From the IMG/VR virus record IMGVR_UViG_3300029922_002860: a stretch of DNA of 64,000 nt; one strand, given 5' to 3'. Below are positions 2,485 to 56,010 of the stretch, in pieces. The notes beneath the pieces were generated by a model. That model ran no database searches and was not told the DNA's origin. It saw only the letters and a list, made by a program, of their open reading frames with translations. Position 1 is the stretch's first letter. Each line of letters starts with the position of its first letter. A program made the translations under genes and the position numbers. Source of the DNA: a virus. Taxonomy: Duplodnaviria; Heunggongvirae; Uroviricota; Caudoviricetes.

Positions 2485-3327
2485 TTACTCTTCGAAGGAC
2501 GCGGACAGGAGAATGTGTCCGATCTCCGGTGCATCCTTGTCGTAAATCTGAAAATCCACGGTCTGCCCGACTAGCGCTTCGCTAGCCGTGATCGTCGCCA
2601 GGGAGGGAGCAATCAGCGCGTTATGGGGGGACCCCAAGGTGAGTTGCATCGCGTCCGTGTGGTGCATGATCGCTTTGTACCTCCCCGGAGAGACGGGGAA
2701 AATGGTGACCGGCAGGCCACAGAACATGGAGGCGCCGATGATTCGAAGCGTGCCCGATGAAGCGGGGACATCGTCTGGGTTCGCCGCGAGCAGCAACGGC
2801 GGACCGGAGCGATCCGTTGGAGCCGTCTTCTTGTCGAAGTACAGGACCGCAGTAGCGGTGCCGTTGATCGAGTCGTACGGGACCAGTTCCAGTGTGTTCG
2901 ACGATGCCCCGCGGACCACTGCGCCCTTCGGCGTGGTATCGACCAGAACGTGGATGAATAGAGAGCCCTCGCGGCTGTACGCGACCAAGGAACCCGTCTT
3001 GTTCTTAAGCTCGTCAAAGTTGACCGGCTCCAGCACGACAAGGGAGGATTCGCCGAGGTACGGGCACATCGAGCCAGTTGCCGCCACTTGGCCCACCCAA
3101 AGCGTGGCATTACTGTCTGTCATCGACTTTGCCATCTTGAGCGCCTCTCCGTAAGTGCGGTCCGACTTCGGCATCACTCCACTCGGGTTGCTGGCAGGGT
3201 CCGGTGCTTTCGTCCTGTGCCAGTGGTACGCAGAGGCCATCGTGTGGCATCCGCTAGCGAGCAGTTGGCTGCCAAGAAGAAGGGTGCAGATGATGGCGCG
3301 CGTGGTGCAGGTCATGTCGGGATACAT
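2485..3327 (-). CDS. secreted lipoprotein, unknown function (280 aa)
   Basis: Signal peptide with lipobox LLASGC. Leaderless-type start: CCCCCCATAATTC then ATG. Confidence 0.6.
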   Translation of the reverse strand: MYPDMTCTTRAIICTLLLGSQLLASGCHTMASAYHWHRTKAPDPASNPSGVMPKSDRTYGEALKMAKSMTDSNATLWVGQVAATGSMCPYLGESSLVVLEPVNFDELKNKTGSLVAYSREGSLFIHVLVDTTPKGAVVRGASSNTLELVPYDSINGTATAVLYFDKKTAPTDRSGPPLLLAANPDDVPASSGTLRIIGASMFCGLPVTIFPVSPGRYKAIMHHTDAMQLTLGSPHNALIAPSLATITASEALVGQTVDFQIYDKDAPEIGHILLSASFEE

Positions 3328-3343
3328 GAATTATGGGGGGTGG
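3328..3343 (-). promoter_or_regulatory. conserved upstream motif CCCCCCATAATT (class A) for the lipoprotein gene
   Basis: The motif ends 1 nt before the ATG. Part of a divergent pair with the 3369-3382 instance. Confidence 0.5.
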
Positions 3344-3368
3344 CTGCCAGATCATACAGACGGGTGCT

Positions 3369-3382
3369 CCCATAATTGTAGT
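3369..3382 (+). promoter_or_regulatory. conserved upstream motif CCCATAATTGTAGT (class A) for the NYN gene
   Basis: Motif immediately 5' of ATG 3383. Confidence 0.5.
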
Positions 3383-4567
3383 ATGGCCGACCTCGCCGCC
3401 AAACCCTCTGCCCTCCTCGTAATGGACTGCGCGAACGTGAACCGGTCGTTCATGGTCAACGGTGTTCAGGGACTCATCGACTACAGCAGGGTGCCGGGGG
3501 TGATCGAGGGCGCAGCCGGCGTGGATCTCCGGGAAGCAGTGATCTGCGAATACAGCAGCCACAACCCAGAGCATATCGACTACCTGGGGGCGTTGAAGAA
3601 GAGCGGCTACACCGTTGTCGAGCGCCGCTTGCGAGCGGTGACCGGTTCAGACGGGACCCACAAACTCATTTGCAACATGGACGCCGAGGTAGCCAATGAG
3701 GCGCTCCTTCGCTCGCACGCCCACGATGTTGTCGTTATTGGTAGTGGGGATGCCGATTTTGTGCCCCTTGTGCATGCGCTCAGGATGCAGGGCAAGAAGG
3801 TCCTGGTGGCAGCGAACAAACCTGCGATTTCGCGGCAACTCGCAGAGGCCGTGGGCTTCAACCGTGTCATTGAGTTCGGCCAGTACCAGAAAAGTCTGGC
3901 AATGGCCCCCGGTGAGCGCGCCCCATGGCCCAACCACCTCAAGCAAGTCGATAGGGTGCCCGCGCAGGAGATCGGTAGCCCTGGAAAGACGGACTCTGCG
4001 ACCCTCTTGATCGACGGCTTCAATCTCTACAACTCCGCTGGACACGAAGGGTGGAGGATCAACTGGCGAAGGTTGGTGTCCGAGGCTGAAACCAAGTATG
4101 GCAACCTCAGCAACGTGCTCCTGTTCGACCGGGGGCCGAAGCCGGCTGTCGTCAACGATCTCTACGCCCGGCTTCAGGATGAAGGGTGGAGGGTCGAACT
4201 GAAGGAACCGAAGAGCAGCGGGTCATATTCGTGCGTCGTCGAAATGGCCTGTGCGTCGATTGAAGCGGCGCGGCGCGGCGACAGCGTTGTGCTGGCGACC
4301 GGCAGCGGGCATCTCCTCTCAACAGTTCGAAGGCTGAAGGAGAATGGCGTATCCGTGGGGTTGATGGCTCCTGAGTGCGGACTCTCGGGTTTGCTCCACA
4401 AGGAATTCTCTCCCGAGGCATTCTACAGCATTACGAGCCATCGCGAAGAGTTGATTTACCGCAACTCCGGCCCGTCATCAGCCTCGTGGATCGACAGGGG
4501 TTTGCCGCCGCTCCCCTCCCCGCGTTTACCCTCCCGTCCCGGCCAAGGGCAGCAGTCGCCGCAGTAA
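3383..4567 (+). CDS. tandem NYN/LabA-like (PIN-like nuclease fold) domain protein
   Basis: Two repeats of the LabA/NYN pattern (VMDCANV...DVVVIGSGDADFVPLV... and LLIDGFNL...SVVLATGSGHLLSTV). Internal start chosen by the motif; the upstream part of ORF 3155.. overlaps the divergent lipoprotein gene. Confidence 0.6.
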   Translation: MADLAAKPSALLVMDCANVNRSFMVNGVQGLIDYSRVPGVIEGAAGVDLREAVICEYSSHNPEHIDYLGALKKSGYTVVERRLRAVTGSDGTHKLICNMDAEVANEALLRSHAHDVVVIGSGDADFVPLVHALRMQGKKVLVAANKPAISRQLAEAVGFNRVIEFGQYQKSLAMAPGERAPWPNHLKQVDRVPAQEIGSPGKTDSATLLIDGFNLYNSAGHEGWRINWRRLVSEAETKYGNLSNVLLFDRGPKPAVVNDLYARLQDEGWRVELKEPKSSGSYSCVVEMACASIEAARRGDSVVLATGSGHLLSTVRRLKENGVSVGLMAPECGLSGLLHKEFSPEAFYSITSHREELIYRNSGPSSASWIDRGLPPLPSPRLPSRPGQGQQSPQ

Positions 4568-35084: not shown

Positions 35085-36629
35085 CTAGAGGAGTTCCGCA
35101 GCACGCTCGGACATTTCCGAACGCTCGCCCTTCACCAGGCTAATCGAGGCGAAGAAGGGCTCATTGCGCATCCGCTTGATGAGGTAGACCAACCCGTTCG
35201 AGTACCGGTCCACGTAGGGGTTGTCGATCTGGGCCGGGTCGCCCATGAAGATCAGCTTCGAGCCCTCGGCCATGCGTGTGGCGATGGTCTTTACCTCCTG
35301 TGGTGTAAGTTGTTGGCTTTCATCGACTATGAAGATTGCATTTGGGATCGAGCGGCCCCGGATGTATGTGAGGGGCTCGATAGTCACGACGCCCGAGGCC
35401 AGAAGCCTCTCGTGCGGCTTCATCGGCGGCTTGCCACCGTTGCCGTACCCCTCCCCCCGGGGGGCCTCAAATGACGGGCCTTCGAACCCCCGCTGACCCT
35501 TCCCCCTGTTCTTCTTGCCAACGGGCTTCCCTGCAAACTGCGGCTCTACCGGACGGCGCAGGGGCATTAGGTACTGCAAAGCGTCGTAGTACGGTGCCAG
35601 CCAGGGCTTCATCTTCTCCTCCATGGTGCCGGGCAGGAACCCAAGGTCCTTGCCAAGCGCCATGATCGCGCGGGTGATGAGGAGCTGGTCGTACCGCGGA
35701 TTCGGCCCCATTACCTGGGCGAGCGCGCCGGCGACGGCCAGAAGGGTCTTCCCCGTGCCCGCTTTGCCCTTCACAGCAATGAGGGTGATTTCGGGGTTGA
35801 AGATCGCGTCCAGGAGGAACTGCTGCTCAAGGTTCCGCGGTCGAATGCTTTGGCTCCCATCAAACCGGACTGCGTCGGGGTAGGATAGGGCGACGACCCT
35901 GGAGTCGGAAACAGCCCTCCCTGGCATGCCGCTCCCGCCCTCGTCGGGGCTCAGCAGGACGTACTCGTTGCAACCGAGCTTCCGGTCCTCGTTGTATTCG
36001 AGGTCGATAGCCTTGTTGCTCGCGAAGCTTTGCAAAGCGTGCCGCTCCACCGTCATCTCGGTGTGCTCGGTCTTCACGTCATTGTCGCCCACCTTGTCGT
36101 TGAGGTAATCCTCGGCATCAAGGCCGACAGCCCGGGCCTTGAGCTGCATGTTCACGTCTTTCGTGACAAGGATGACCGGTGGCTTTGAGGTGCTCTTGAT
36201 GTAGAGCGCGGTCTCGATAATGCTGTTATCCATCTTGTACGAATCACGCAGGACACTGTGGGCTCCCGGAGGAAGTTCGAAGTTTCCGGGCCGGATCGAG
36301 ATCGAGATATTGCCACCATGCGGCAGGCGCGCTCCCTCGGCCATAGTCCGCTTGTCGGGGAACAGTTCGGCGAGAAAGCGGGCGACCTGGCGGGCGTTGC
36401 GGCCACGCTCACTGTCCGTTTCTGTCTTGATGTGGTCCAGCTCTTCAAGGACCTCGACCGGGATCGCCACCGTGTTATCCTTCTCGAAGTTGAAGATCGC
36501 GCGCGGATCGTGGATGAGAACGCACGTGTCCAATATATAGGACTTAACGCGCGTACCTGTATGTCTAGCTGCTAACTTGGAATTAGTTACATAGGTCTGC
36601 GCAGAACCATCGAGCGTAACTGTCTTCAT
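35085..36629 (-). CDS. phoH: PhoH-like ATPase with N-terminal PIN domain
   Basis: PIN motif YILDTCVLIHDP. P-loop AVKGKAGTGKT. PhoH-like C-terminus. Unusual roughly 75-nt AT-rich leader after the CCCCCCATCTTAG motif. Confidence 0.85.
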   Translation of the reverse strand: MKTVTLDGSAQTYVTNSKLAARHTGTRVKSYILDTCVLIHDPRAIFNFEKDNTVAIPVEVLEELDHIKTETDSERGRNARQVARFLAELFPDKRTMAEGARLPHGGNISISIRPGNFELPPGAHSVLRDSYKMDNSIIETALYIKSTSKPPVILVTKDVNMQLKARAVGLDAEDYLNDKVGDNDVKTEHTEMTVERHALQSFASNKAIDLEYNEDRKLGCNEYVLLSPDEGGSGMPGRAVSDSRVVALSYPDAVRFDGSQSIRPRNLEQQFLLDAIFNPEITLIAVKGKAGTGKTLLAVAGALAQVMGPNPRYDQLLITRAIMALGKDLGFLPGTMEEKMKPWLAPYYDALQYLMPLRRPVEPQFAGKPVGKKNRGKGQRGFEGPSFEAPRGEGYGNGGKPPMKPHERLLASGVVTIEPLTYIRGRSIPNAIFIVDESQQLTPQEVKTIATRMAEGSKLIFMGDPAQIDNPYVDRYSNGLVYLIKRMRNEPFFASISLVKGERSEMSERAAELL

Positions 36630-48906: not shown

Positions 48907-48929
48907 GCAGCCGGTTTTTAAGCGGCTGC
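48907..48929 (-). terminator. hairpin terminator overlapping the HNH stop codon
   Basis: GCAGCCG-loop-CGGCTGC followed by TTTCTT on the minus strand. Confidence 0.5.
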
Positions 48930-49568
48930 GTCCTTACGAGATGGCTGAGGGCAGGTGAGAAACAGCAGCCAGTCCGGGTGCTTGGGCGTCCGGATGAGGC
49001 TGCAACGGGGAAGCCCGAGGGGTGCCCGGGGCCTGCGGATCAACTTGAGGCCGCACTCGCTGTTAAGGCGGTTGCCCTTCCACGAGTTGATGGACCTGGT
49101 GCAGGTTACGAGGTTTTCCCAGGTATCGCCGCCGCCACGGTCCTTCGGGATGACGTGGTCGATGTTCGCCTCCTCCGGCCGCAGGCGTTTGCCCGTGTAC
49201 TGGCACCGCCACCCGTCACGCTCGTAGACCCCCTGGGGGGAGAGGCGAGGGCGTGCGTGAGGCATGTCAGCGTAGGCAGGAGCCATGATAACCGTGGGCG
49301 CCCGCAGCCATCCACGTGCGGTCTCGATCACCACGTCGAAGGGGCGCACGGGAAGAGAGACCCACTCCGCCCATGTGACTGTGCGACGCTCCAAAGGCTC
49401 ATCGTAGTTCGGGCGGCCGTCTGGACCGAGAGCGTACTCGATGTCGAAGGCCAAGGCGGGGTTCTCGCCCGTCATGGCAGTGATCGCGTCACGAACGGTC
49501 CTTGCGTCAATCGGGAGGTGAACCCGGTTGACATCGAGAACAATGGTCTGGTCGAGGACTGCGCTCAT
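48918..49568 (-). CDS. HNH endonuclease
   Basis: CQYTG...DHVIPKDRGG...WENL...C motif set. Confidence 0.8.
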   Translation of the reverse strand: MSAVLDQTIVLDVNRVHLPIDARTVRDAITAMTGENPALAFDIEYALGPDGRPNYDEPLERRTVTWAEWVSLPVRPFDVVIETARGWLRAPTVIMAPAYADMPHARPRLSPQGVYERDGWRCQYTGKRLRPEEANIDHVIPKDRGGGDTWENLVTCTRSINSWKGNRLNSECGLKLIRRPRAPLGLPRCSLIRTPKHPDWLLFLTCPQPSRKDAAA

Positions 49569-49618: not shown

Positions 49619-49692
49619 TGGCTGCTCGGCTAGGACTCGAACCTAGACACGCAGATTCAGAGTCTGCTGTGCTACCATTACACTACCGGGCA
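49619..49692 (-). tRNA. tRNA-Gln(CTG)
   Basis: Cloverleaf inferred by eye. CCA is encoded. Anticodon loop CTCTGAA. Confidence 0.6.
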
Positions 49693-49693
49693 G

Positions 49694-49777
49694 TGGTGCG
49701 GGGACCGCGATTCGAACGCGGATGCTTTTCAGCGCCAGGTTCTAAAACTGGTGCGTCTACCATTTCGCCACCCCCGC
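49694..49777 (-). tRNA. tRNA-Leu(TAG), type II
   Basis: Acceptor GCGGGGG. Leu-like D arm. Anticodon loop TTTAGAA. Long variable arm. Confidence 0.55.
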
Positions 49778-49810
49778 AAAGTCATGCGCCCGTGTCGGGC
49801 AGGATTAGCG

Positions 49811-50065
49811 CTATAAAAGCGCCTTGAATCGGTTCAGTTCAGCGATGGTGCCGTCAATGTCGCCGCGAAGAACGTCGCGCGTCTTCTCGATGATGTGAGT
49901 CGCGCCCTGTTTCTCAAGGTCCCCGAGGTAAGCTTGCCAATTGGCGTCGAGTACCTTGACCGCCGCCTGCGCGGCGTAGCCCGTTAGCTCCTCGGGGAAC
50001 CCGTCAGGGCGACCCTGCGTTGCTGCGAGACTGTTCACCTTGTCCGCGTAGGCTTTTATTTGCAT
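49811..50065 (-). CDS. small hypothetical helical protein (84 aa) embedded in the tRNA array
   Basis: CGCCATCTTGGCGC then ATG. Confidence 0.5.
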   Translation of the reverse strand: MQIKAYADKVNSLAATQGRPDGFPEELTGYAAQAAVKVLDANWQAYLGDLEKQGATHIIEKTRDVLRGDIDGTIAELNRFKALL

Positions 50066-50093
50066 GCGCCAAGATGGCGGATCTTTCCGTGAA

Positions 50094-50169
50094 TGGAGCC
50101 GGCGATGGGACTCGAACCCGCAACCGCGTGTTTACAAAACACGTGCTCTGCCATTGAGCTACGCCGGCG
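50094..50169 (-). tRNA. tRNA-Thr(TGT)
   Basis: Acceptor GCCGGCG. Anticodon loop TTTGTAA. Two CGCCATCTT copies immediately 5' of the mature end. Confidence 0.65.
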
Positions 50170-50182
50170 AAGATGGCGAAGA

Positions 50183-50277
50183 TGGCGGAGATGGATAGAT
50201 TCGAACTATCGGCGTCAGGGGATACCTGGCGCGGAACTTTAGCAAAGTTCTGGTTTAGACCTCTCACCCACATCTCC
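50183..50277 (-). tRNA. tRNA-Ser(GCT), type II
   Basis: Acceptor GGAGATG. Anticodon loop TTGCTAA. Long variable arm. Confidence 0.6.
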
Positions 50278-50281
50278 AAAA

Positions 50282-50366
50282 TGCCGACGGCCCGACTCGA
50301 ACGGGCACGACCTCGATGGTCACGAGCTTCTGAGACTCGCGTGTCTACCAATTCCACCACGCCGGC
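50282..50366 (-). tRNA. tRNA-Leu(CAG), type II
   Basis: Leu-like D arm. Anticodon loop CTCAGAA. No CCA encoded. Confidence 0.55.
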
Positions 50367-50375
50367 GAAAGAAAA

Positions 50376-50463
50376 TGGCGGTGAGGGCGAGATTCGGACT
50401 CGCGGTACCTCTCGGTACTTCTGTTTTCGAGACAGGTGCCTTAAACCACTCAGCCACCTCACC
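50376..50463 (-). tRNA. tRNA-Ser(CGA), type II
   Basis: Acceptor GGTGAGG. Anticodon loop CTCGAAA. Confidence 0.55.
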
Positions 50464-50472
50464 GTGGAAAGT

Positions 50473-50549
50473 TGGAGCTACGGGCCGGATTTGAACCGGC
50501 ATCATTCGATTTAGAAAATCGAGGCCCTATCCAATTGGACGACCGCAGC
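50473..50549 (-). tRNA. tRNA-Arg(TCT)
   Basis: Anticodon loop TTTCTAA. T arm GCCGGTTCAAATCCGGC. Confidence 0.6.
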
Positions 50550-50565
50550 GGAATCGCTCAGTAAA

Positions 50566-50642
50566 TGGCGCTCCGGCCCTGATTCGAACAGGGAGCCTTC
50601 TCGTTAGGACCGAGCTGCGCTATCCAATTGCGCCACCGGAGC
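50566..50642 (-). tRNA. tRNA-Arg(CCT)
   Basis: Acceptor GCTCCGG. Anticodon loop GTCCTAA. Confidence 0.55.
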
Positions 50643-50829
50643 ACGAAGCCTGAAATGGTGCTTGGCGGGATGGAGGTGATCCTACTCCGGTTGCCCGGGC
50701 CAGCTTATCTCCTCGCCGGCACAAACCCTCCGCAACCGGCTGAGAAAGTGGTGGCCGCTGCCGGATTTTAACCCGCGATTACCCGATTATGGGTCAGGTG
50801 CTTTGAACACTAAGCTAAACGGCCGTAAA

Positions 50830-50906
50830 TGGGGAGACCAACGAGGATCGAACTCGCAACCCCGAGATCCACAATCTCGTGCTCTGCCGATTGAGCTATG
50901 GCCTCC
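50830..50906 (-). tRNA. tRNA-His(GTG) with extra 5' G(-1)
   Basis: G-1 pairs with C73. Anticodon loop TTGTGGA. Confidence 0.65.
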
Positions 50907-50912
50907 ATGAAG

Positions 50913-50987
50913 TGGCGCCCGATAGCGGGGTCGAACCGCTGCCTGAACCTTGAGAGGGTCCCGTCCTGACCGCTAGACGAACCGGGC
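50913..50987 (-). tRNA. tRNA-Glu(CTC)
   Basis: Glu-type D arm. Anticodon loop CTCTCAA. Confidence 0.6.
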
Positions 50988-51012
50988 GAAAGAGTTGCCG
51001 TGAATGAAAATG

Positions 51013-51086
51013 TGCCCAAGGCGCGATTTGAACGCGCGACCCCAAGTTTCGGAAACTTGTGCTCTATCCAACTGAGCTACCTGGGC
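51013..51086 (-). tRNA. tRNA-Arg(CCG)
   Basis: Anticodon loop TTCCGAA. No CCA encoded. Confidence 0.6.
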
Positions 51087-51093
51087 AAAAGAA

Positions 51094-51175
51094 TGCGCCT
51101 GAGCAGGGTCGAACTGCTATGCCTTGCGGCACGTGTCCCTCAAACACGCGTGTATCCCAATTCCACCACAGGCGC
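51094..51175 (-). tRNA. tRNA-Leu(GAG), type II
   Basis: Anticodon loop TTGAGGG. Confidence 0.55.
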
Positions 51176-51185
51176 GTAAAGTGAT

Positions 51186-51273
51186 TGGCGGTGGGTGCAT
51201 GATTCGAACACGCGGCGCGGTGAAGCGCTCCCAATTTCAAGCTGGGTGCATTAGGCCACTCTGCCAACCCACC
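51186..51273 (-). tRNA. tRNA-Ser(TGA), type II
   Basis: Anticodon loop CTTGAAA. Confidence 0.55.
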
Positions 51274-51279
51274 AAAATA

Positions 51280-51366
51280 CGGAAGCGGAAAGATTCGAAC
51301 TTTCGGCGCCATTGTGGACGCGTCTCGTTTCCAACGAGGTGCCTTAAACCGCTCAGCCACGCTTCC
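51280..51366 (-). tRNA. tRNA-Ser(GGA), type II
   Basis: Anticodon loop TTGGAAA. Confidence 0.5.
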
Positions 51367-51373
51367 GAGTAAA

Positions 51374-51449
51374 TGGAGCCACGGGTCGGATTCGAACCGA
51401 CGACCTACGCTTTACGAAAGCGTCGCTCTGCCAACTGAGCTACCGAGGC
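51374..51449 (-). tRNA. tRNA-Thr(CGT)
   Basis: Anticodon loop TTCGTAA. Confidence 0.6.
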
Positions 51450-51466
51450 ATCAAATGATGAAATCG

Positions 51467-51552
51467 TGGGCTAGGCCGGATTCGAACCGGCATGAGTTGT
51501 TAACCTCGGCAGGGTTTGAGCCTGCTGCGTCTCCCAATTCCGCCACACGCCC
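51467..51552 (-). tRNA. tRNA-Leu(CAA), type II (two acceptor-stem mismatches)
   Basis: Anticodon stem-loop GCAGG-CTCAAAC-CCTGC. Confidence 0.45.
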
Positions 51553-51562
51553 ATGGAAAGAA

Positions 51563-51635
51563 AGCTCGTGACCAGGATCGAACTGGTGACCTCGTCCTTA
51601 CCAAGGACGTGCTCTACCGACTGAGCTACGCGAGC
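51563..51635 (-). tRNA. tRNA-Thr(GGT)
   Basis: Anticodon loop TTGGTAA. CCCCATCTT abuts the mature 5' end. Confidence 0.6.
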
Positions 51636-51648
51636 AAGATGGGGAGAT

Positions 51649-51723
51649 TGGTGGCGCGCCGGGGACTCGAACCCCGAACCTACTGATTAAGAGTCAGCTG
51701 CTCTACCATTGAGCTAGCACGCC
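51649..51723 (-). tRNA. tRNA-Lys(CTT)
   Basis: Anticodon loop CTCTTAA. Confidence 0.6.
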
Positions 51724-51739
51724 ATAGGAAAGAATTCGT

Positions 51740-51813
51740 TGGCTGCCTAGCGTGGTTTCGAACCACGACCAAGAGGGTCAAAGCCTCCCGTGCTACCATT
51801 ACACCACCAGGCA
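51740..51813 (-). tRNA. tRNA-Gln(TTG)
   Basis: Anticodon loop CTTTGAC. Confidence 0.6.
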
Positions 51814-51821
51814 ACGAAAAA

Positions 51822-51894
51822 TCGGGGTGGCAGGATTCGAACCTGCGGCCTCTTCGTCCCGAACGAAGCGCTCTGCCAGACTAAGCTACACCCC
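51822..51894 (-). tRNA. tRNA-Pro(CGG)
   Basis: Anticodon loop TTCGGGA. Confidence 0.6.
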
Positions 51895-51895
51895 G

Positions 51896-51975
51896 GAAAT
51901 TGGCGGTCTCGCTCGGTTTGGAACCGAGGACCTGTCGCCTGAAACGCAACGGATCTACCGATGAGAAAAGGGGCG
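51896..51975 (-). pseudogene. tRNA 3'-half fragment (T arm, acceptor and CCA, with no matching 5' half)
   Basis: CTCGG-TTCCAAA-CCGAG T-arm-like hairpin followed by CGAGACC-G-CCA. No complementary 5' acceptor strand is present. Confidence 0.3.
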
Positions 51976-51978
51976 AAA

Positions 51979-52188
51979 TTAGTTCTGCGTGTCTTGCCCT
52001 GCCAGCTTCCAGATGTCGTTGCGGACATCATTGATTATCTCCTCGGCTGCCTCGACGGAGGCCATCTCTTCGGCGGTGAGCGCACGGCCTTTCGCCATGA
52101 CCAGCCCATTGAGCACCGTATGGACATCGCCCAGGCGTTTGTCGATGGACTTGGTGAGGACGGAGCGGAGGGGGGAGCTGGATTCCAT
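51979..52188 (-). CDS. small hypothetical helical protein (69 aa) within the tRNA array
   Basis: GACCACCATCTTGGGAT then ATG. Confidence 0.45.
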   Translation of the reverse strand: MESSSPLRSVLTKSIDKRLGDVHTVLNGLVMAKGRALTAEEMASVEAAEEIINDVRNDIWKLAGQDTQN

Positions 52189-52332
52189 ATCCCAAGATGG
52201 TGGTCTCTCGCAGTAAGAGAAATGGAAAGCGGCGAGGGCTGATTTCTTGCAAACCACCTCAATGAGCCGAGGTGCTTGATCTGTGAGACCTAAGTCCCAG
52301 AACGGCTAATTCACTAGAGACTGCCCGTGCGC

Positions 52333-52629
52333 TCAATGCTGCGGGGTGTGCGGCGTCCAACCCTTGCTCTCACACACGCACTCGATGAACTGGAGGCACT
52401 TAACCGTATCAAACCAGTCCTTCTCGCAGAGGTGAAGAACCCACTGGGCGAGAGCATGGTAATCGGGGATGCGGGACAGCGAAACGTCGTACGCGTTCGA
52501 CGGATTACCTCCCTTATGGATGACCACGCAGCCACGCTCGATCCGTACGAACTGCGGAAATGTAGGCGGATTGCCCGTGTTTATGCGGCGAAACCCCAGT
52601 TGCCCTAGGGGCGATGGTTGTTTTTTCAT
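52333..52629 (-). CDS. Cys-rich hypothetical protein (98 aa) within the tRNA array
   Basis: CCACCATCTTGGTTTGC then ATG. The motif overlaps the CCA end of the upstream tRNA. Confidence 0.45.
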   Translation of the reverse strand: MKKQPSPLGQLGFRRINTGNPPTFPQFVRIERGCVVIHKGGNPSNAYDVSLSRIPDYHALAQWVLHLCEKDWFDTVKCLQFIECVCESKGWTPHTPQH

Positions 52630-52640
52630 GCAAACCAAGA

Positions 52641-52715
52641 TGGTGGCAGGACCAGGATTCGAACCTGGGATAAGACGATGTCATCGTCCCGTCATAACCG
52701 CTTAACGATCCCGCC
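52641..52715 (-). tRNA. tRNA-Val(GAC)
   Basis: Anticodon loop ATGACAT. Confidence 0.55.
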
Positions 52716-52721
52716 GAAATT

Positions 52722-52794
52722 TGGACCTGACCGGACTCGAACCGGTCGCCCCCTGCTTGCAAAGCAGGCGCTCTTCCAGATGAGCTACAGGCCC
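52722..52794 (-). tRNA. tRNA-Ala(TGC)
   Basis: G3:U70 pair. Anticodon loop TTTGCAA. Confidence 0.65.
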
Positions 52795-52800
52795 GAAAAA

Positions 52801-52877
52801 TGGCGGGATGGACCGAGTTCGAATCGGCAACCTTTCGCGTGACAGGCGAATGCTCTAACCAGTTGAGCTACCACCCC
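52801..52877 (-). tRNA. tRNA-Asp(GTC)
   Basis: Anticodon loop CTGTCAC. Confidence 0.6.
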
Positions 52878-52883
52878 AAAAAT

Positions 52884-52960
52884 TGGAGACCCGCCGCGGA
52901 GTTGAACCGCGCGCTTCCTCGTTTGCTGCGAGGTCCGTTCACCAGGCTCGGTCGCGGGCC
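52884..52960 (-). tRNA. tRNA-Cys(GCA), atypical (A33, unusual D arm and T loop)
   Basis: Anticodon stem-loop CCTCG-CAGCAAA-CGAGG. Confidence 0.4.
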
Positions 52961-52969
52961 ACTGAAAAA

Positions 52970-53041
52970 TCGGGGCGGGCAGGATCGAACTGCCGATCTC
53001 GCGGCCCCCAGCCGTGCGCGTTGCCACTTCGCTACGCCCCG
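52970..53041 (-). tRNA. tRNA-Pro(GGG)
   Basis: Anticodon loop CTGGGGG. Confidence 0.5.
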
Positions 53042-53047
53042 TAAAGA

Positions 53048-53122
53048 TGGCTGCTCGGGCTGGGGTCGAACCAGCGACCAAGTGCTTAACAGGCACCTGC
53101 TCTGCCACTGAGCTACCGAGCA
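53048..53122 (-). tRNA. tRNA-Asn(GTT)
   Basis: Anticodon loop CTGTTAA. Confidence 0.6.
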
Positions 53123-53129
53123 ATGAGAG

Positions 53130-53205
53130 TGGTGCGCGAGGAGGGACTCGAACCCCCAACCCTCTCGGTGTAAACGAGATGCTCTCACCATTAAGCTACC
53201 CGCGC
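53130..53205 (-). tRNA. tRNA-Val(TAC)
   Basis: Anticodon loop TTTACAC. Confidence 0.6.
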
Positions 53206-53269
53206 ATTTTGAAACTGGAATCGGATTGGGAACACGGAAACGGAGGTTGCCGTTGACCATCGCGTATAT

Positions 53270-53860
53270 TTGATCCCCGACGTGCCGAGAGCGTGTCAAA
53301 ACCCTGAGGGATACTTGGAGGCTCGTGGGGTTGCGGTGATCGAAGTGCCGCCGTACCAAGGCATTCTTGGTGCAGGCACAGCGGGCTACGTAAAGGAGGA
53401 AAAGACTGTCTATATCTCGTCCGCCGCAAAGGGGAAACGCCGCCAGTGGGCTCTATGGCATGAGGCCGCCCATGTTGCGGACTATAAGCACGCCAGTTTC
53501 AGTTTCGAGTACGGCGCTGTTTCCCTGCGCCTTAAGACCGCGCTGCTTGCGCACAAGGAATTCCTTGTGCGGTTGCATACCCGCGGACCGCGCCTCTCGG
53601 AAGCCTTCATCGCCACCCTCCCATCCGCAGCGCAATTATTGATACAGTTGGAAAGGGAGCGAGAGATGATCCTTCAGCGGACGATTCGCATGCAACCCTG
53701 CGAGTTGTTCGCGGACGCTACCGCCTGCCTGTTCTGCTGCCACCGACTATTCTTCAAGCGGGCTGGCGGGCTGTTCCACCCCTTGTCCAAGGAGCTTCGC
53801 CGCTACCGATTTCCCCTTGAAGACCTCATCGACATGCGCCTCGACGATGTGCGCGCCTGA
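53270..53860 (+). CDS. ImmA/IrrE-family zinc metallopeptidase (HEAAH motif), encoded on the plus strand inside the tRNA array
   Basis: WHEAAHVADYKH matches HExxH. The N-terminal region is typical of the COG2856 family. Confidence 0.6.
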   Translation: MIPDVPRACQNPEGYLEARGVAVIEVPPYQGILGAGTAGYVKEEKTVYISSAAKGKRRQWALWHEAAHVADYKHASFSFEYGAVSLRLKTALLAHKEFLVRLHTRGPRLSEAFIATLPSAAQLLIQLEREREMILQRTIRMQPCELFADATACLFCCHRLFFKRAGGLFHPLSKELRRYRFPLEDLIDMRLDDVRA

Positions 53861-53867
53861 AATCGTG

Positions 53868-53940
53868 GACCTGGACGGACTTAAACCGTCAACCTCTTCG
53901 ATGCCATCGAAGCGCTCTATCAGCTGAGCTACAGGCCCAA
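53868..53940 (-). tRNA. tRNA-Ala(GGC)
   Basis: G3:U70 pair. Anticodon loop ATGGCAT. Confidence 0.6.
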
Positions 53941-53946
53941 GAAAAT

Positions 53947-54033
53947 TGGTCGGCAGCGCGGGGGTCGAACCCGCACGAGCTTGCGCTCACCGGAGTTTAA
54001 GCCCGGCGCGTCTACCAGTTCCGCCACCCGCCG
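53947..54033 (-). tRNA. tRNA-Leu(TAA), type II
   Basis: Anticodon loop CTTAAAC. Confidence 0.55.
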
Positions 54034-54036
54034 AAA

Positions 54037-54111
54037 ATCGGGGCGACAGGGTTCGAACCTGCGACCTCCTGGTCCCAAACCAGGCGCTCTACCAGACTAA
54101 GCTACACCCCG
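54037..54111 (-). tRNA. tRNA-Pro(TGG)
   Basis: Anticodon loop TTTGGGA. Confidence 0.6.
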
Positions 54112-54116
54112 GAAAA

Positions 54117-54192
54117 TGGCAGGAACGGAGGGAGTCGAACCCCCAACCAACGGTTTTGGAGACCGCTACTCTACCAATTGAGCTACGTTCCT
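54117..54192 (-). tRNA. tRNA-Trp(CCA)
   Basis: Anticodon loop CTCCAAA. Confidence 0.6.
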
Positions 54193-54203
54193 ATCTCTGA
54201 AAT

Positions 54204-54282
54204 TGGGTGCAGAGACTGGATTTCAACCAGCGATCTCCACCTTATGAGGGTGGCGAGGACAAGCAGGCTCCTCCACTCTGCA
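54204..54282 (-). tRNA. tRNA-Met(CAT), atypical D loop and T loop
   Basis: Anticodon stem-loop CCACC-CTCATAA-GGTGG. Confidence 0.45.
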
Positions 54283-54335
54283 ACAAAGCTGTGTTCGTCG
54301 TCGCGAGAGAAAAGCTCGCGCCCGACTCTGGAAAA

Positions 54336-54482
54336 TGTTCGCGACGGGAATCGAACCCGCGCCACCCCTTGCGGGGGTTTTCCGTCGCAGCATTATCCGA
54401 CGCAGTTGCCTAGGCATGCGTCAGTGCCGCGCCGGCCGCTAGGCTACGTGAACCCGCAGTGCTGCCACTACACCACGCGAAC
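54336..54482 (-). ncRNA. tRNA-like locus with a roughly 70-nt insertion in the anticodon region (intron-containing tRNA or disrupted pseudogene; possible Val(CAC))
   Basis: Perfect acceptor stem GTTCGCG/CGCGAAC, a Gln-like D arm and a canonical T arm are spread over 147 nt. Insertion begins after ...GCGGG-TTCACG. Confidence 0.4.
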
Positions 54483-54490
54483 GAAAATCG

Positions 54491-54562
54491 TGGACCGAAG
54501 GGGGATCGAACCCCTGACCTCATCGTTGCGAACGACGCGCTCTTCCACTGAGCTACCGGCCC
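54491..54562 (-). tRNA. tRNA-Ala(CGC)
   Basis: G3:U70 pair. Anticodon loop TTCGCAA. Confidence 0.55.
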
Positions 54563-54569
54563 ATCGAAA

Positions 54570-54646
54570 TGGTGGTCTCGGGTGGGTTCGAACCACCGAC
54601 CCCGCGCTTATCAAGCGCGTGCTCTAACCAGCTGAGCTACGGGACC
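54570..54646 (-). tRNA. tRNA-Ile(GAT)
   Basis: Anticodon loop TTGATAA. Confidence 0.6.
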
Positions 54647-54655
54647 ATAAGTGGA

Positions 54656-54729
54656 TGGAGCGGTAGCCGGGAATCGAACCCGGGACACCTGTTTGGAAAA
54701 CAGAGGTTTTGCCACTAAACTACAACCGC
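54656..54729 (-). tRNA. tRNA-Gly(TCC)
   Basis: Anticodon loop TTTCCAA. Confidence 0.55.
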
Positions 54730-54734
54730 GAGAT

Positions 54735-54812
54735 TGGCGGTAACGGGTGGGTTCGAACCACCGACACGCGGCTTTTCAGACCGCTGCTCTACCAATACTG
54801 AGCTACGTCACC
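54735..54812 (-). tRNA. tRNA-Phe(GAA)
   Basis: Anticodon loop CTGAAAA. Confidence 0.6.
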
Positions 54813-54830
54813 AAAAATGGTTCTGCGAAA

Positions 54831-54917
54831 TGGTGCGTCAGGAAGGACTCGGACCCTCGAAGCCCCGAAGGGCGGCGCGTTTACAGCGCGCTGCATTTGC
54901 CGCTCTGCCACTGACGC
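54831..54917 (-). tRNA. tRNA-Tyr(GTA), type II
   Basis: Anticodon loop CTGTAAA. Long variable arm. Confidence 0.55.
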
Positions 54918-54924
54918 GTGAAAG

Positions 54925-55001
54925 TGGGGGAACTGGGTGGACTTGAACCACCGACATTCGCCTTATGAGGGCGCTCCTCTGCCAACTGAGGTACAGTTCC
55001 A
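54925..55001 (-). tRNA. tRNA-Met(CAT) second copy (elongator, initiator or Ile2 not distinguishable)
   Basis: Anticodon loop CTCATAA. Three G-C pairs in the anticodon stem. Confidence 0.5.
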
Positions 55002-55018
55002 TGCGTATCCAGAATTGT

Positions 55019-55090
55019 GGGACACCTGGGACTCGAACCCAGAACCTACTGCTTAAAAGGCAGCAGCTCTGCCATTGAGCTAGTGACCCA
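55019..55090 (-). tRNA. tRNA-Lys(TTT)
   Basis: Anticodon loop CTTTTAA. Confidence 0.55.
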
Positions 55091-55362
55091 TACGAAAGTG
55101 TCTCCGCCTCGGCCATGAATGCAGGCCCGTGGGGCTCAACCGCGCTTCGCATCGCGGGCACTCTGATACCAACCGACGGCACAAGCCGACGCGTTTAGCC
55201 CTGCCTGCCGCGCGAAGCCGCAGCGCAGACTGAACGGAGATTCTTGAAAGTGTCCGATGGGTCCCAGGTCGCTCCAGGATGCTCAGGTTCTCACCCGCAT
55301 GTGACGCAAGGCTCCACCGCCTTGGACGCCGCTCCCAGCCCTCGATGCCCCACCGGAAATTA

Positions 55363-55436
55363 AGCGGTAAGAGGGACTCGAACCCTCGGCCTCCACGTTG
55401 GCAACGTGGCGCTCTAACCGACTGAGCTACTACCGC
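55363..55436 (-). tRNA. tRNA-Gly(GCC)
   Basis: Anticodon loop TTGCCAA. Confidence 0.6.
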
Positions 55437-55552
55437 GAGAGAGATTATTCCTGCACGCTACGCTTCGGCTTCGTGCTTGCCGGGTACCACAGCACCAGGG
55501 GACCCGACGGAGTTAAGTGCCCGCTGTCTCGGGTCAACGATAGCAGGGAGAA

Positions 55553-55629
55553 TGGCGCGAACGGCAGGGTTCGAACCTGCAACTTCCTGATCCGTAGTCA
55601 GGGGATCTATCCAGTTGATCTACGTTCGC
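55553..55629 (-). tRNA. tRNA-Arg(ACG)
   Basis: Anticodon loop CTACGGA. Confidence 0.6.
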
Positions 55630-55639
55630 GTGAAAGTGT

Positions 55640-55710
55640 CGCCCCCAGCCAGAATCGGACTGGCGCGCCGCGCGTGAAAGGCGCGTGTCCTGCCACTAGA
55701 CGATGAGGGC
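55640..55710 (-). tRNA. tRNA-Glu(TTC), first gene of the array; extended acceptor pairing with flanks
   Basis: Anticodon loop CTTTCAC. Glu-type D arm. Leader GTC pairs with trailer GAC. Confidence 0.5.
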
Positions 55711-56010
55711 GACATGAAAGTGAAAAGCTGGGTGGCGGGCACGAATGCCCCTTACCGCGCGAGCGCGCGACCACCCAGCTCTTGCCATCGCCTGGCCACG
55801 AATGTGGCTGGAGCCTCACGGAGTTTAGGCCGATTTACGCTCCGGCGCTGGCTTCTATCTGAAGAAAAGAACCACCTGCCGTCCCTCTCGGCTTTCGCCG
55901 GATTGGACCCGCCCCCAGTGTGGGAAGGCGTCTTCGCTGATTCGTGGGGCTCAGCTGTGAAGCCACTTGGAAATTGGAAAGGTGTAGGACCCGGTCCGGA
56001 AGTGGCTTGG

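What the first reader, a model, noticed from the sequence alone, without database searches (positions are those of the whole stretch)
54336..54482. tRNA-like gene interrupted by a roughly 70-nt structured insertion
A perfect 7-bp acceptor stem (GTTCGCG/CGCGAAC), a D arm (GTGTAGTGGCAGCAC) and a canonical T arm (GCGGGTTCGATTCCCGT) are separated by 147 nt instead of about 75. The extra segment begins in the anticodon loop (…GCGGG TTCACG|…) and contains its own GACGCA/TGCGTC and GC-rich hairpins. It could be a small intron, an inserted mini-element, or a decayed tRNA. The apparent anticodon CAC (Val) is otherwise missing from the array.
Basis: seen in the sequence. Interest (0 to 1): 0.6.

Follow-up and report, generated by a model that had tools for sequence, protein, structure and literature searches.

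The report
Valine tRNA gene split by hairpin insert
A valine tRNA gene inside a 44-gene tRNA cluster of an uncultivated giant bacterial mobile element is split in its anticodon loop by a 70-base hairpin that fits no known intron class, so it is either an unusual enzyme-spliced bacterial/phage tRNA intron or a gene knocked out by an insertion.

Summary
On the minus strand, 54336-54482 holds an otherwise intact tRNA-Val(CAC) gene with about 70 nt inserted after position 37 or 38 of the anticodon loop. The Rfam tRNA model scores it 42.5 bits (threshold 29). The two anticodon-arm halves are non-random: 0.04% of composition-matched shuffles do as well.

The gene sits in register in a 44-gene tRNA array beside an HNH endonuclease gene, on a >200 kb phage- or plasmid-like element from bog metagenomes.

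The insert is a significantly stable bulged hairpin (z = -3.3). It is not a group I intron, has no archaeal bulge-helix-bulge motif, matches no Rfam family, and has no second copy in the window or in the collections searched.

All recovered copies are clonal, so conservation and covariation cannot be tested.

The predicted spliced tRNA is odd: G37, a 10-nt variable loop and a competing hairpin.

The element encodes an RNA ligase just outside the window. Lak megaphages carry comparable unexplained tRNA introns at the same position.

Best guess (0.4): an intron cut out by an endonuclease and sealed by a ligase. Main rivals: an insertion-inactivated gene (0.3) and an unspliced tRNA-like RNA (0.17). 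Moderately interesting, unresolved.

The parts
54336..54482 (-). Interrupted tRNA-Val(CAC) gene, 147 nt including discriminator A73. No CCA is encoded.
   Evidence: Rfam RF00005 at 42.5 bits, model positions 1-71. ARAGORN -i calls tRNA-Val(cac) i(37,70).
54447..54482 (-). 5' exon (RNA nt 1-36): acceptor 5' strand, U8, D arm with A14, G15, G18 and G19, anticodon-stem 5' strand GCGGG, and loop nucleotides UUCACG.
   Evidence: Sequence, cmscan alignment, ARAGORN cloverleaf.
54448..54450 (-). Anticodon CAC (Val), preceded by U32 U33 and followed by G37.
54377..54446 (-). 70-nt insert (RNA nt 37-106). The boundary is ambiguous by one nucleotide (37/38 or 38/39).
   Evidence: ARAGORN -i. Fold z = -3.3. 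Unique in the window. No Rfam family.
54382..54435 (-). Long bulged hairpin of the insert (RNA nt 48-101, about 21 bp): CCG/CGG, CGCGGCA/UGCUGCG, a 3'-side AUAA bulge, CUGACGCA/UGCGUCGG, and an apical UGCCUAGGCAAC that contains the 10-bp DNA palindrome TGCCTAGGCA.
   Evidence: MFE and centroid structures.
54439..54444 (-). 5' tail of the insert, GCCUAG. It is perfectly complementary to CUAGGC in the apical loop (54408-54413), giving a possible pseudoknot.
   Evidence: Read directly from the sequence. A 6-bp match between tail and loop occurs in 1.5% of shuffles. Inferred, not shown.
54336..54376 (-). 3' exon (RNA nt 107-147): C38, anticodon-stem 3' strand CCCGC (54371-54375), 10-nt variable region AAGGGGUGGC (54361-54370) ending in C48, T arm, acceptor 3' strand, and A73.
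54365..54376 (-). CCCC-GCAA-GGGG hairpin with a GNRA loop. It overlaps the 3' strand of the anticodon stem and so competes with it.
   Evidence: The fold that uses this hairpin is about 5 kcal/mol better than cloverleaf plus intron.
49619..55711 (-). tRNA array of 43 standard genes plus this one, covering all 20 amino acids. Spacers are mostly 4-16 nt and often begin (A)TTTTC. The interrupted gene lies 7 nt after tRNA-Ala(cgc) and has a TTTTCC trailer.
48918..49568 (-). HNH endonuclease gene directly downstream of the array. This arrangement is typical of horizontally moving tRNA arrays.
   Evidence: Pfam HNH_4/HNH/HNH_5. Homologues lie next to tRNA arrays or RNA-repair genes in other phage contigs. 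Literature.
3155..4567 (+). NYN-domain protein, a metal-dependent RNase fold. It is a candidate endonuclease only by inference.
   Evidence: Pfam PF01936, E 4.5e-20.
35085..36629 (-). PIN_4-PhoH protein (RNase-fold domain plus ATPase). It is a candidate RNA-processing enzyme only by inference.
   Evidence: Pfam and PHROG hits.

Best explanation
This is a genuine member of the element's tRNA array: a tRNA-Val(CAC) gene carrying an intron-like 70-nt structured insert at the canonical intron position (37/38, or 38/39). Most likely the array is transcribed as a polycistron and the ends are trimmed like those of its neighbours. An endonuclease then cuts the insert out, and the two halves, held together by the acceptor, D and T arms, are sealed by an RNA ligase. 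The element's own PF09414 ligase is a candidate for sealing. Host RNase III acting on the long bulged hairpin, or the element's NYN or PIN nucleases, are candidates for cutting. Shown: the gene, the insert, its position, its stable fold, the absence of group I and bulge-helix-bulge features, and the presence of a ligase gene in the element. Inferred: transcription, excision, ligation and the identity of the enzymes.
For: The exons keep every invariant tRNA feature (U8, A14, G15:C48, G18G19, U33, the T loop UUCGAUU, G53:C61, and A73 as expected for Val) and score 42.5 bits despite the insertion penalty. The anticodon-arm halves are far from chance (0.04% of shuffles). The insert sits exactly where archaeal and eukaryal introns sit, and where the Lak megaphage tRNA introns sit (anticodon 33-35, intron from 37). 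The gene is in register in the array, with a 7-nt spacer and the TTTTCC trailer shared by other members; about a third of members also lack an encoded CCA. It supplies the C34 isoacceptor that the array provides for Leu, Pro, Thr, Ala, Ser and Arg but otherwise lacks for Val. The insert is a discrete, significantly stable structure (z = -3.3) with a possible tail-loop pseudoknot (1.5% of shuffles). It is not a repeated element in the window, IMG/VR, phage or plasmid collections. The element encodes an RNA ligase (Pfam PF09414 E 2.8e-21; phrog_24030 E 4e-103) 3.3-4.3 kb left of the window. The closest well-assembled homologue of the array-linked HNH lies next to an Rnl1, Rnl2, kinase and phosphatase RNA-repair cassette. 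Other phage tRNA arrays fetched here also hold tRNAs with 40-50-nt anticodon-loop inserts (L103 448-568, L129 10766-10877).
Against: No protein-dependent tRNA splicing pathway is established in bacteria or their phages. There is no bulge-helix-bulge motif in any register and no ribozyme or intron family hit. The spliced product would be atypical. It would have G37, whereas both intact Val tRNAs of the array have A37, and apart from this gene G37 occurs only in decoders of C-starting codons. It would also have a 10-nt variable loop and a GNRA hairpin competing with the anticodon stem. The cloverleaf is 9 kcal/mol above the MFE for the spliced RNA and 5 kcal/mol above it for the precursor. All copies are clonal (99.98-100% identical) and no relative has a homologous gene, so there is no conservation or covariation evidence. 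The ligase lies 58 kb away, and phage RNA ligases are usually explained by tRNA repair. Horizontally moving tRNA arrays are known to contain pseudogenes (3 of 26 in Anabaena).
Confidence: 0.4

Rival explanations
1. Insertion-inactivated gene. A small palindromic DNA element (REP-, MITE- or IS200/IS605-derived-like, leaving no target duplication) or a local duplication or repair event landed in the anticodon loop of a formerly working, or already aberrant, tRNA gene. The RNA is never spliced and the gene is a young pseudogene tolerated because tRNA-Val(UAC) can read GUG.
For: The insert is essentially one long imperfect palindrome whose first bases, with G37, read GTAG. From my own knowledge, that tetranucleotide marks the end of REP elements. 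There are no terminal inverted repeats and no target-site duplication. The mature product would carry G37 and a 10-nt variable loop. The precursor prefers a non-cloverleaf fold. Pseudogenes are common in horizontally moving tRNA arrays. The array also lacks Gly-CCC, so completeness is not enforced. Clonal copies mean intact exons carry little weight.
Against: There is no second copy of any part of the insert in 64 kb at up to 3 mismatches, nor in IMG/VR, the phage or the plasmid collections. A random hit at the one or two positions used by protein-spliced introns is about a 3% event for a 77-nt gene. The exons show no decay.
Confidence: 0.3
2. An unspliced tRNA-like RNA with its own function. 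The transcript keeps the insert and works as a tRNA mimic with extra arms, for example as a decoy or sponge for tRNA-targeting defence nucleases or modification enzymes, or as a protein-binding scaffold.
For: With only the acceptor, D and T arms fixed, the best fold has three internal hairpins. These are GCGGGUU-CACGU-AGCCU(A)GC, the long hairpin, and CCCC-GCAA-GGGG. This fold is 5 kcal/mol better than the splice-competent form. Phage tRNA arrays fetched here contain a conserved family of tRNA-like RNAs whose anticodon arm is replaced by two hairpins and an invariant 30-nt block (15 distinct members). Class I tRNAs with extra variable-arm hairpins occur in an HNH-linked array.
Against: The window RNA lacks that family's invariant block. 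Unlike that family, it has a perfect anticodon stem plus a U33-CAC-R37 loop that is very unlikely by chance. No homologue exists to show conservation of the alternative fold.
Confidence: 0.17
3. A self-splicing or self-cleaving RNA of an undescribed class. The insert excises itself, or cleaves at both ends and is then sealed by a ligase.
For: The fold is compact and significantly stable, with a possible pseudoknot. The position is in the anticodon loop, like bacterial group I tRNA introns.
Against: Seventy nucleotides is, from my own knowledge, far below the roughly 200 nt of the smallest group I introns. The real group I tRNA introns found here span about 200 nt. There is no terminal G at the 3' end of the insert. 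No hit to any of the 4227 Rfam families at E <= 10, including the small ribozymes.
Confidence: 0.05
4. Assembly or chimera artefact.
For: One related contig (L001) breaks the array inside tRNA-Pro(cgg) and continues with unrelated lower-GC DNA.
Against: The identical 147-nt gene is found in independent assemblies from different samples and sources, ENA and JGI.
Confidence: 0.01

Closest known systems
'Enigmatic' tRNA introns of Lak megaphages (Devoto et al. 2019, PMC6784885)
   Same: These are phage-borne tRNA genes in large tRNA sets, with 79-93-nt inserts one nucleotide 3' of the anticodon. They have no Rfam hit, no known splicing mechanism, and show presence/absence polymorphism.
   Different: The two Lak introns I read (Tyr, Phe) are AT-rich and contain a T-arm-like GGTTCGAxTCC minihelix; the authors note one may itself encode a tRNA. 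The insert here is GC-rich, has no T-loop motif, and is one long bulged hairpin. There is no sequence similarity, and the host lineage differs.
Group I self-splicing introns in bacterial tRNA anticodon loops (e.g. tRNA-Leu(UAA), tRNA-Ile, tRNA-Arg)
   Same: A bacterial-type replicon, with the insertion in the anticodon loop of a tRNA gene.
   Different: Those introns span about 200 nt and match Rfam Intron_gpI at 68-76 bits. This insert is 70 nt, gives no hit at E <= 10, and does not end in G.
Archaeal and eukaryal protein-spliced tRNA introns (bulge-helix-bulge, EndA/TSEN plus RtcB or Trl1)
   Same: Canonical 37/38 position, a length within the archaeal range (11-129 nt), and a structured intron.
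   Different: Nucleotides 32-35 cannot form the 4-bp central helix with the intron, and no 3-4-3 motif exists in any register. The replicon is bacterial in type (DnaE, sigma-70 factors, LexA-like protein). No EndA-like gene was seen in the roughly 80 kb inspected.
Long horizontally transferred tRNA gene arrays ('L-arrays') with an adjacent homing-type HNH endonuclease (Santamaria-Gomez et al. 2021, PMC8421152; T4 segB)
   Same: 43 standard genes plus this one, in one orientation with short spacers, on a mobile element, with an HNH gene abutting the array. Such arrays include non-functional members.
   Different: This describes the context, not the insert. In my term search of that paper ('intron' occurs once in it), none of the returned passages mentions short structured inserts in array members.
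REP elements and IS200/IS605-derived palindromic mini-elements
   Same: A GC-rich imperfect palindrome of tens of nucleotides, no target duplication, no terminal inverted repeats, and GTAG at one end (sequence; REP properties are from my own knowledge).
   Different: These elements are defined by many copies per genome. Only one copy is seen here, and none elsewhere in the collections searched. The host genome could not be searched.

Membership tests
tRNA (Rfam RF00005) | Covariance-model score above the gathering threshold over the full model | tested here: met
   42.5 bits against a threshold of 29, model positions 1-71, with a 73-nt insertion in the anticodon loop.
tRNA (functional elongator tRNA-Val) | Canonical invariant nucleotides plus the Val identity set (A35, C36, A73) | tested here: met
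   U8, A14, G15:C48, G18G19, U33, U54-U55-C56, A58, G53:C61, CAC and A73 are all present.
tRNA (functional elongator tRNA-Val) | Class I geometry (4-5-nt variable loop) and A37, as in the other Val tRNAs | tested here: not met
   10-nt variable region AAGGGGUGGC. G37, whereas Val(gac) and Val(tac) of the same array have A37.
tRNA (functional elongator tRNA-Val) | Expression, splicing and aminoacylation | not testable with these tools
   No RNA data are available.
Group I intron | Match to the group I catalytic core (P3-P9), size of about 200 nt or more, terminal G | tested here: not met
   No Intron_gpI hit at E <= 10. The insert is 70 nt and ends in ...AAAAC. Positive controls were found in L120 and L144.
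Archaeal/eukaryal BHB intron | A 4-bp helix between nucleotides 32-35 and the intron, flanked by two 3-nt bulges carrying the splice sites (definition: PMC4090602) | tested here: not met
   In the canonical register only 2 of 4 pairs form. Enumeration of 126 registers gave none that combines a full motif with a 7-nt spliced loop.
Archaeal/eukaryal BHB intron | Position one nucleotide 3' of the anticodon | tested here: met
   ARAGORN i(37,70) with the anticodon at 33-35. The 38/39 register is equally possible.
Archaeal/eukaryal BHB intron | A splicing endonuclease (EndA/TSEN) encoded by the host or element | tested here: inconclusive
   None appears among the Pfam annotations of about 80 kb of the element. 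The element exceeds 200 kb and the host is unknown.
Known small self-cleaving ribozymes and riboswitches (Rfam) | Covariance-model match | tested here: not met
   Only chance-level matches (E 4.6-9.6) to CRISPR repeats and RT-3 in 210 nt.
Lak-type phage tRNA introns | A non-group-I insert at 37/38 of a phage tRNA gene | tested here: met
   Searches compared.
Lak-type phage tRNA introns | An internal T-arm-like or tRNA-like minihelix in the intron | tested here: not met
   The 70 nt contain no GGTTCRANYCC-type motif. Such a motif is present in the Lak Tyr and Phe introns and in the L103 448-568 insert.
Repeated palindromic mobile elements (REP/MITE) | Multiple copies in the genome | tested here: inconclusive
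   There is one copy in the window at up to 3 mismatches. There is none in IMG/VR, in phages or in plasmids. The host chromosome and the metagenome collection were not searched for the insert.
Phage tRNA-like RNA family with the invariant block CGGUUAUCU..AGAUACGGACAGCAAU (seen in L129, L143, L167-L178) | The invariant internal block between the D and T arms | tested here: not met
   No match to AGATACGGACAGCAAT at up to 3 mismatches in the window.

The most novel reading that the evidence does not exclude
Bacterial mobile elements (giant phages or plasmids) may possess a tRNA splicing route independent of both group I ribozymes and the archaeal/eukaryal BHB endonuclease. In it, a structured hairpin intron at position 37/38 is cut by a metal-dependent or double-strand-specific RNase leaving 3'-OH and 5'-phosphate ends, and is sealed directly by an element-encoded ATP-dependent RNA ligase. 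This locus and the Lak-type introns would be two faces of that pathway.
Probability: 0.25. Interest if true: 0.85.

Novelty: new variant of a known kind. Interest (0 to 1): 0.5.

Why it matters
Textbook knowledge says bacterial tRNA introns are self-splicing group I ribozymes, and that protein-spliced tRNA introns are confined to archaea and eukaryotes. Short non-ribozyme inserts in megaphage tRNAs have been reported but never explained. This locus is a clean, GC-rich, easily synthesised example in an element that also encodes an RNA ligase. That makes the question 'are such inserts spliced, and by what?' directly testable. If the insert is spliced, it reveals a new RNA-processing route and a possible way for mobile elements to regulate or shield a tRNA from anticodon-directed defence nucleases. 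If it is not spliced, it is one more pseudogene in a horizontally moving tRNA array, and a warning that intron-mode tRNA finders over-call (84% of shuffles here).

Tried and rejected
- Group I, group II, ribozyme or riboswitch identity: rejected. There is no Rfam hit.
- Archaeal BHB motif: rejected by enumerating registers.
- Repeated element: no other copy in the window. The inverted-repeat scan shows no family of similar hairpins.
- Homologues of the gene or insert:
  - No IMG/VR match for the intron core, the 5' exon or the 3' exon.
  - GTDB species representatives gave only an unrelated Clostridia tRNA-Arg(CCT).
  - Phage and plasmid BLAST with the locus and with the in-silico spliced tRNA gave only generic T-arm matches.
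- Diverged relatives of the element, through neighbouring proteins:
  - The HNH protein has homologues at 67% identity or less, but those nearest are on contigs under 2 kb, and the well-assembled ones (L006, L008, L185, L186) have different arrays without this gene.
  - The 174-aa ORF inside the array and the 488-aa neighbour have no homologues at all.
  - Covariation analysis was therefore impossible.
- Population variation: all copies are 99.98-100% identical.
- Membership in the tRNA-like family found in L129 and L143: rejected.
- ARAGORN's intron call as evidence: downgraded after the shuffle control.
- One IMG/VR scan was wasted on a mis-spaced pattern.
- Promoter and terminator scan of the locus: nothing relevant.

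Full report
**What is there.** The finding lies on the minus strand. Read 5'->3' from 54482 down to 54336, the RNA is:

GUUCGCG-UG-GUGU-AGUGGCA-GCAC-U-GCGGG-UUCACG | UAGCCUAGCGGCCGGCGCGGCACUGACGCAUGCCUAGGCAACUGCGUCGGAUAAUGCUGCGACGGAAAAC | C-CCCGC-AAGGGGUGGC-GCGGG-UUCGAUU-CCCGU-CGCGAAC-A.

- Default ARAGORN finds 43 tRNA genes on this strand between 49619 and 55711 and leaves a 207-nt hole here.
- The Rfam tRNA model bridges the hole at 42.5 bits (gathering 29). It aligns all four arms and places a 73-nt insertion inside the anticodon loop.
- ARAGORN in intron mode calls tRNA-Val(cac) with a 70-nt intron one nucleotide 3' of the anticodon. The in-silico spliced 77-mer is called as the same tRNA.

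**Is it more than chance?**
- The ARAGORN intron call is not good evidence by itself. When I kept the acceptor, D and T arms and shuffled the 97 nt between them, 84% of 1000 shuffles still produced a full-length 'intron-containing tRNA'.
- A stricter test is informative. I required a perfect Watson-Crick 5-bp stem starting right after position 26, a variable loop of 4-10 nt, and Y32, U33 and R37. The stem alone arises in 1.1% of 200,000 shuffles, and the full set in 0.04%.
- The exons also keep U8, A14, the G15:C48 pair, G18G19, the T loop UUCGAUU, G53:C61 and the Val discriminator A73.
- An ancestral tRNA-Val(CAC)-type gene split in its anticodon loop is therefore a robust reading.
- The boundary is ambiguous by one base. 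The spliced loop is UUCACGC if the insert lies at 37/38, or UUCACGU if it lies at 38/39.

**The insert.**
- Alone it folds to -31.6 kcal/mol, against -22.6 +/- 2.7 for dinucleotide shuffles (z = -3.3).
- The core is a hairpin of about 21 bp (54382-54435). It has a 3'-side AUAA bulge, an AC bulge, and an apical loop containing the palindrome UGCCUAGGCA.
- The 5' tail GCCUAG is exactly complementary to CUAGGC in that loop. This happens in 1.5% of shuffles, so a pseudoknot is possible but unproven.
- No part of the insert recurs in the 64-kb window at up to three mismatches.
- It matches none of the 4227 Rfam families at E <= 10. The only 'hits' are chance matches of the CCCCGCAAGGGG hairpin to CRISPR repeats and an E = 7 match to RT-3.

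**Tests against known intron classes.**
- Group I: 70 nt is, from my own knowledge, far below the roughly 200 nt of the smallest group I introns, the insert does not end in G, and there is no model hit.
- Bulge-helix-bulge: by the definition in PMC4090602, nucleotides 32-35 must form a 4-bp helix with the intron, flanked by two 3-nt bulges. Here UUCA faces GAAA (2 of 4 pairs). Enumeration of 126 registers found none that combines the motif with a 7-nt spliced loop.
- The insert therefore belongs to neither established class.

**Context.**
- The gene sits in register in the array. It lies 7 nt after tRNA-Ala(cgc) and is followed by the TTTTCC-type trailer seen after many members. Lack of an encoded CCA is shared by about a third of the genes.
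- The array covers all 20 amino acids and carries a C34 isoacceptor for Leu, Pro, Thr, Ala, Ser and Arg. Val-CAC exists only as this gene, and Gly-CCC is absent.
- An HNH endonuclease gene abuts the array (48918-49568). This is the arrangement described for horizontally moving 'L-arrays' of up to 43 tRNA genes, which also contain pseudogenes.
- The replicon is about 60% GC. It encodes DnaE, a RecJ-like exonuclease, PIN-PhoH, an integrase, ParA, several sigma-70 factors, T2SSE ATPases and an NYN-domain protein, and otherwise mostly orphan proteins.
- Contigs carrying its genes reach 261 kb. They come from ENA and JGI metagenomes.
- It is a giant phage- or plasmid-like element of a bacterium. 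I could not decide which.

**Comparative evidence is unavailable.**
- All copies I could retrieve (window, L001-L003, L084/085, L179-L184) are 99.98-100% identical.
- IMG/VR has neither exon nor the insert.
- GTDB species representatives hold only an unrelated tRNA-Arg with the same 3' end.
- Phage and plasmid collections give only generic T-arm matches.
- Two neighbouring proteins have no homologues at all among 5.8 billion clusters.
- The HNH protein does have homologues next to tRNA arrays (L006, L008, L186, and many IMG/VR contigs), but those arrays are different and lack this gene.
- Conservation and covariation, the usual arbiters, therefore cannot be applied.

**Features that speak against a routine spliced tRNA.**
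- The spliced product would have G37. In this array, apart from this gene, G37 is confined to decoders of C-starting codons, and both intact Val tRNAs have A37.
- Its variable region is 10 nt instead of 4-5.
- The C-run that forms the 3' strand of the anticodon stem can instead close a CCCC-GCAA-GGGG hairpin.
- With only the acceptor, D and T arms fixed, the precursor prefers three internal hairpins (-67.6 kcal/mol) over cloverleaf plus intron (-62.4). The spliced RNA's cloverleaf (-28.8) lies 9 kcal/mol above its MFE.
- These are thermodynamic predictions, not measurements.

**Features that speak for processing.**
- Walking 10 kb beyond the left edge of the window shows that the element encodes a 363-aa RNA ligase. 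It matches Pfam PF09414 (E 2.8e-21) and phrog_24030 'RNA ligase' over its full length (E 4e-103). From my own knowledge, this ATP-dependent class seals 3'-OH/5'-phosphate ends.
- The best-assembled homologue of the array-linked HNH (49% identity, L185) sits directly after an Rnl1, Rnl2-like, kinase and phosphatase RNA-repair cassette.
- The window itself encodes NYN- and PIN-fold proteins.
- None of this shows splicing. It does show that cut-and-seal chemistry on tRNA is within the repertoire of such elements.

**Precedent.**
- Lak megaphages carry tRNAs with 'enigmatic' introns. Their Tyr and Phe genes have 93- and 79-nt inserts starting one nucleotide after the anticodon, with no Rfam hit, and the inserts are conserved between cohorts.
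- Those introns contain a T-arm-like minihelix, as does the 49-nt insert I found in a phage tRNA-Asn (L103 448-568). The insert here does not.
- It is therefore a structural variant within a poorly understood phenomenon, not a homologue.

**Verdict.**
Its nature is unresolved between three readings.
- I rank first (0.4) a real intron removed by an endonuclease and sealed by a ligase. The reasons are the canonical position, intact exons, in-register placement, a discrete stable and non-repeated insert, the ligase, and the Lak precedent.
- Second (0.3) is a recent inactivating insertion of a palindromic DNA element. The reasons are the atypical mature product, clonal data, and the frequency of pseudogenes in such arrays.
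- Third (0.17) is an unspliced tRNA-like RNA. The reasons are the favoured alternative fold and the existence of tRNA-like families in phage arrays.
- An undescribed ribozyme (0.05) and an artefact (0.01) are unlikely.
- A search for exon-exon junction reads in RNA from the source samples would settle the matter.

Noticed in passing
window 49619-55711 (-), with HNH gene 48918-49568 (-): One of the largest contiguous tRNA arrays: 43 standard genes plus the interrupted one, covering all 20 amino acids. Spacers are mostly 4-16 nt and often begin (A)TTTTC. An HNH endonuclease gene follows directly, as in 'L-arrays' and T4 segB.
   Followed up: partly
window 54204-54282 (-): The next gene downstream is a 79-nt tRNA-Met(cat) called only by ARAGORN. 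It has an 11-nt D loop without the usual GG context, a T loop UUGAAAU, and no Rfam tRNA hit at E < 1. It may be a non-canonical or defective member; it is one of three CAT genes in the array.
   Followed up: partly
window 51896-52640, 53206-53864, 55090-55362, 49778-50093: Four gaps of 270-745 nt inside the array have no Rfam hit. The called ORFs there (for example 53336-53860 +, 174 aa) have no homologue outside this element among 5.8 billion protein clusters.
   Followed up: partly
L182 14941-16032 (3.3-4.3 kb left of window position 1): The element encodes a 363-aa RNA ligase (PF09414; phrog_24030). Its N-terminal 185 aa give weak HNH/AP2-like matches. No PDB sequence relative was found.
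   Followed up: partly
L001 1-7700 (ENA ERZ27249030, 189-kb contig): In one contig the array stops inside tRNA-Pro(cgg) and continues with unrelated lower-GC DNA encoding a MetRS-like synthetase and other genes, so it lacks the half of the array that holds the interrupted gene. This is either a recombinant or a chimeric assembly.
   Followed up: no
L129 10934-11052 and 11168-11285; L143 12176-12294, 12320-12442 and 12555-12673; L167-L178: A conserved family of roughly 118-nt tRNA-like RNAs (15 distinct sequences). It occurs in low-GC IMG/VR phage contigs, with 1-3 copies each. Acceptor, D and T arms are normal. The anticodon arm is replaced by an invariant block AAUCGG-UUAUCUnG..AGAUA-CGGACAGCAAU, whose hairpin shows a covarying closing pair, plus a second covarying hairpin. 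It matches no Rfam family other than a partial tRNA match.
   Followed up: partly
L103 448-568; L129 10766-10877: Two further phage tRNAs with anticodon-loop inserts and clear anticodon stems. One is an Asn-like gene with a 49-nt insert inside the anticodon that contains a T-arm-like minihelix (CGAG-UUCGAUU-CUCG), like the Lak introns. The other is a Leu(UAA)-like gene with a roughly 40-nt insert.
   Followed up: partly
L006 7937-8028; L008 6141-6229; L186 3444-3533 and 5745-5831: HNH-linked phage arrays contain tRNA(UAU) genes with long variable arms and aberrant D and T loops. They also contain class I tRNAs (Trp, Gln) carrying extra 4-5-bp variable-arm hairpins.
   Followed up: no
L008 4390-4545; L120 4974-5367; L129 14248-14344 and L143 15852-15957: A c-di-AMP riboswitch lies inside a metagenomic tRNA-array locus (55.5 bits). 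A tmRNA gene lies in a phage contig (92.8 bits). wcaG RNAs lie beside the arrays of L129 and L143.
   Followed up: no
L185 4019-8948: The closest well-assembled homologue of the window's HNH sits immediately downstream of a full RNA-repair cassette (Rnl1, Rnl2-like, cREC_REC, AAA_33 kinase, metallophosphatase). This links the HNH family to tRNA-related loci in general.
   Followed up: no
window 44094-44966 (-) and L182 18517-20730: ART-PolyVal and LPD1 domains, which are hallmarks of polyvalent proteins of conjugative elements and phages. Together with two T2SSE ATPases, ParA and an integrase, they leave open whether the element is a phage or a plasmid.
   Followed up: no
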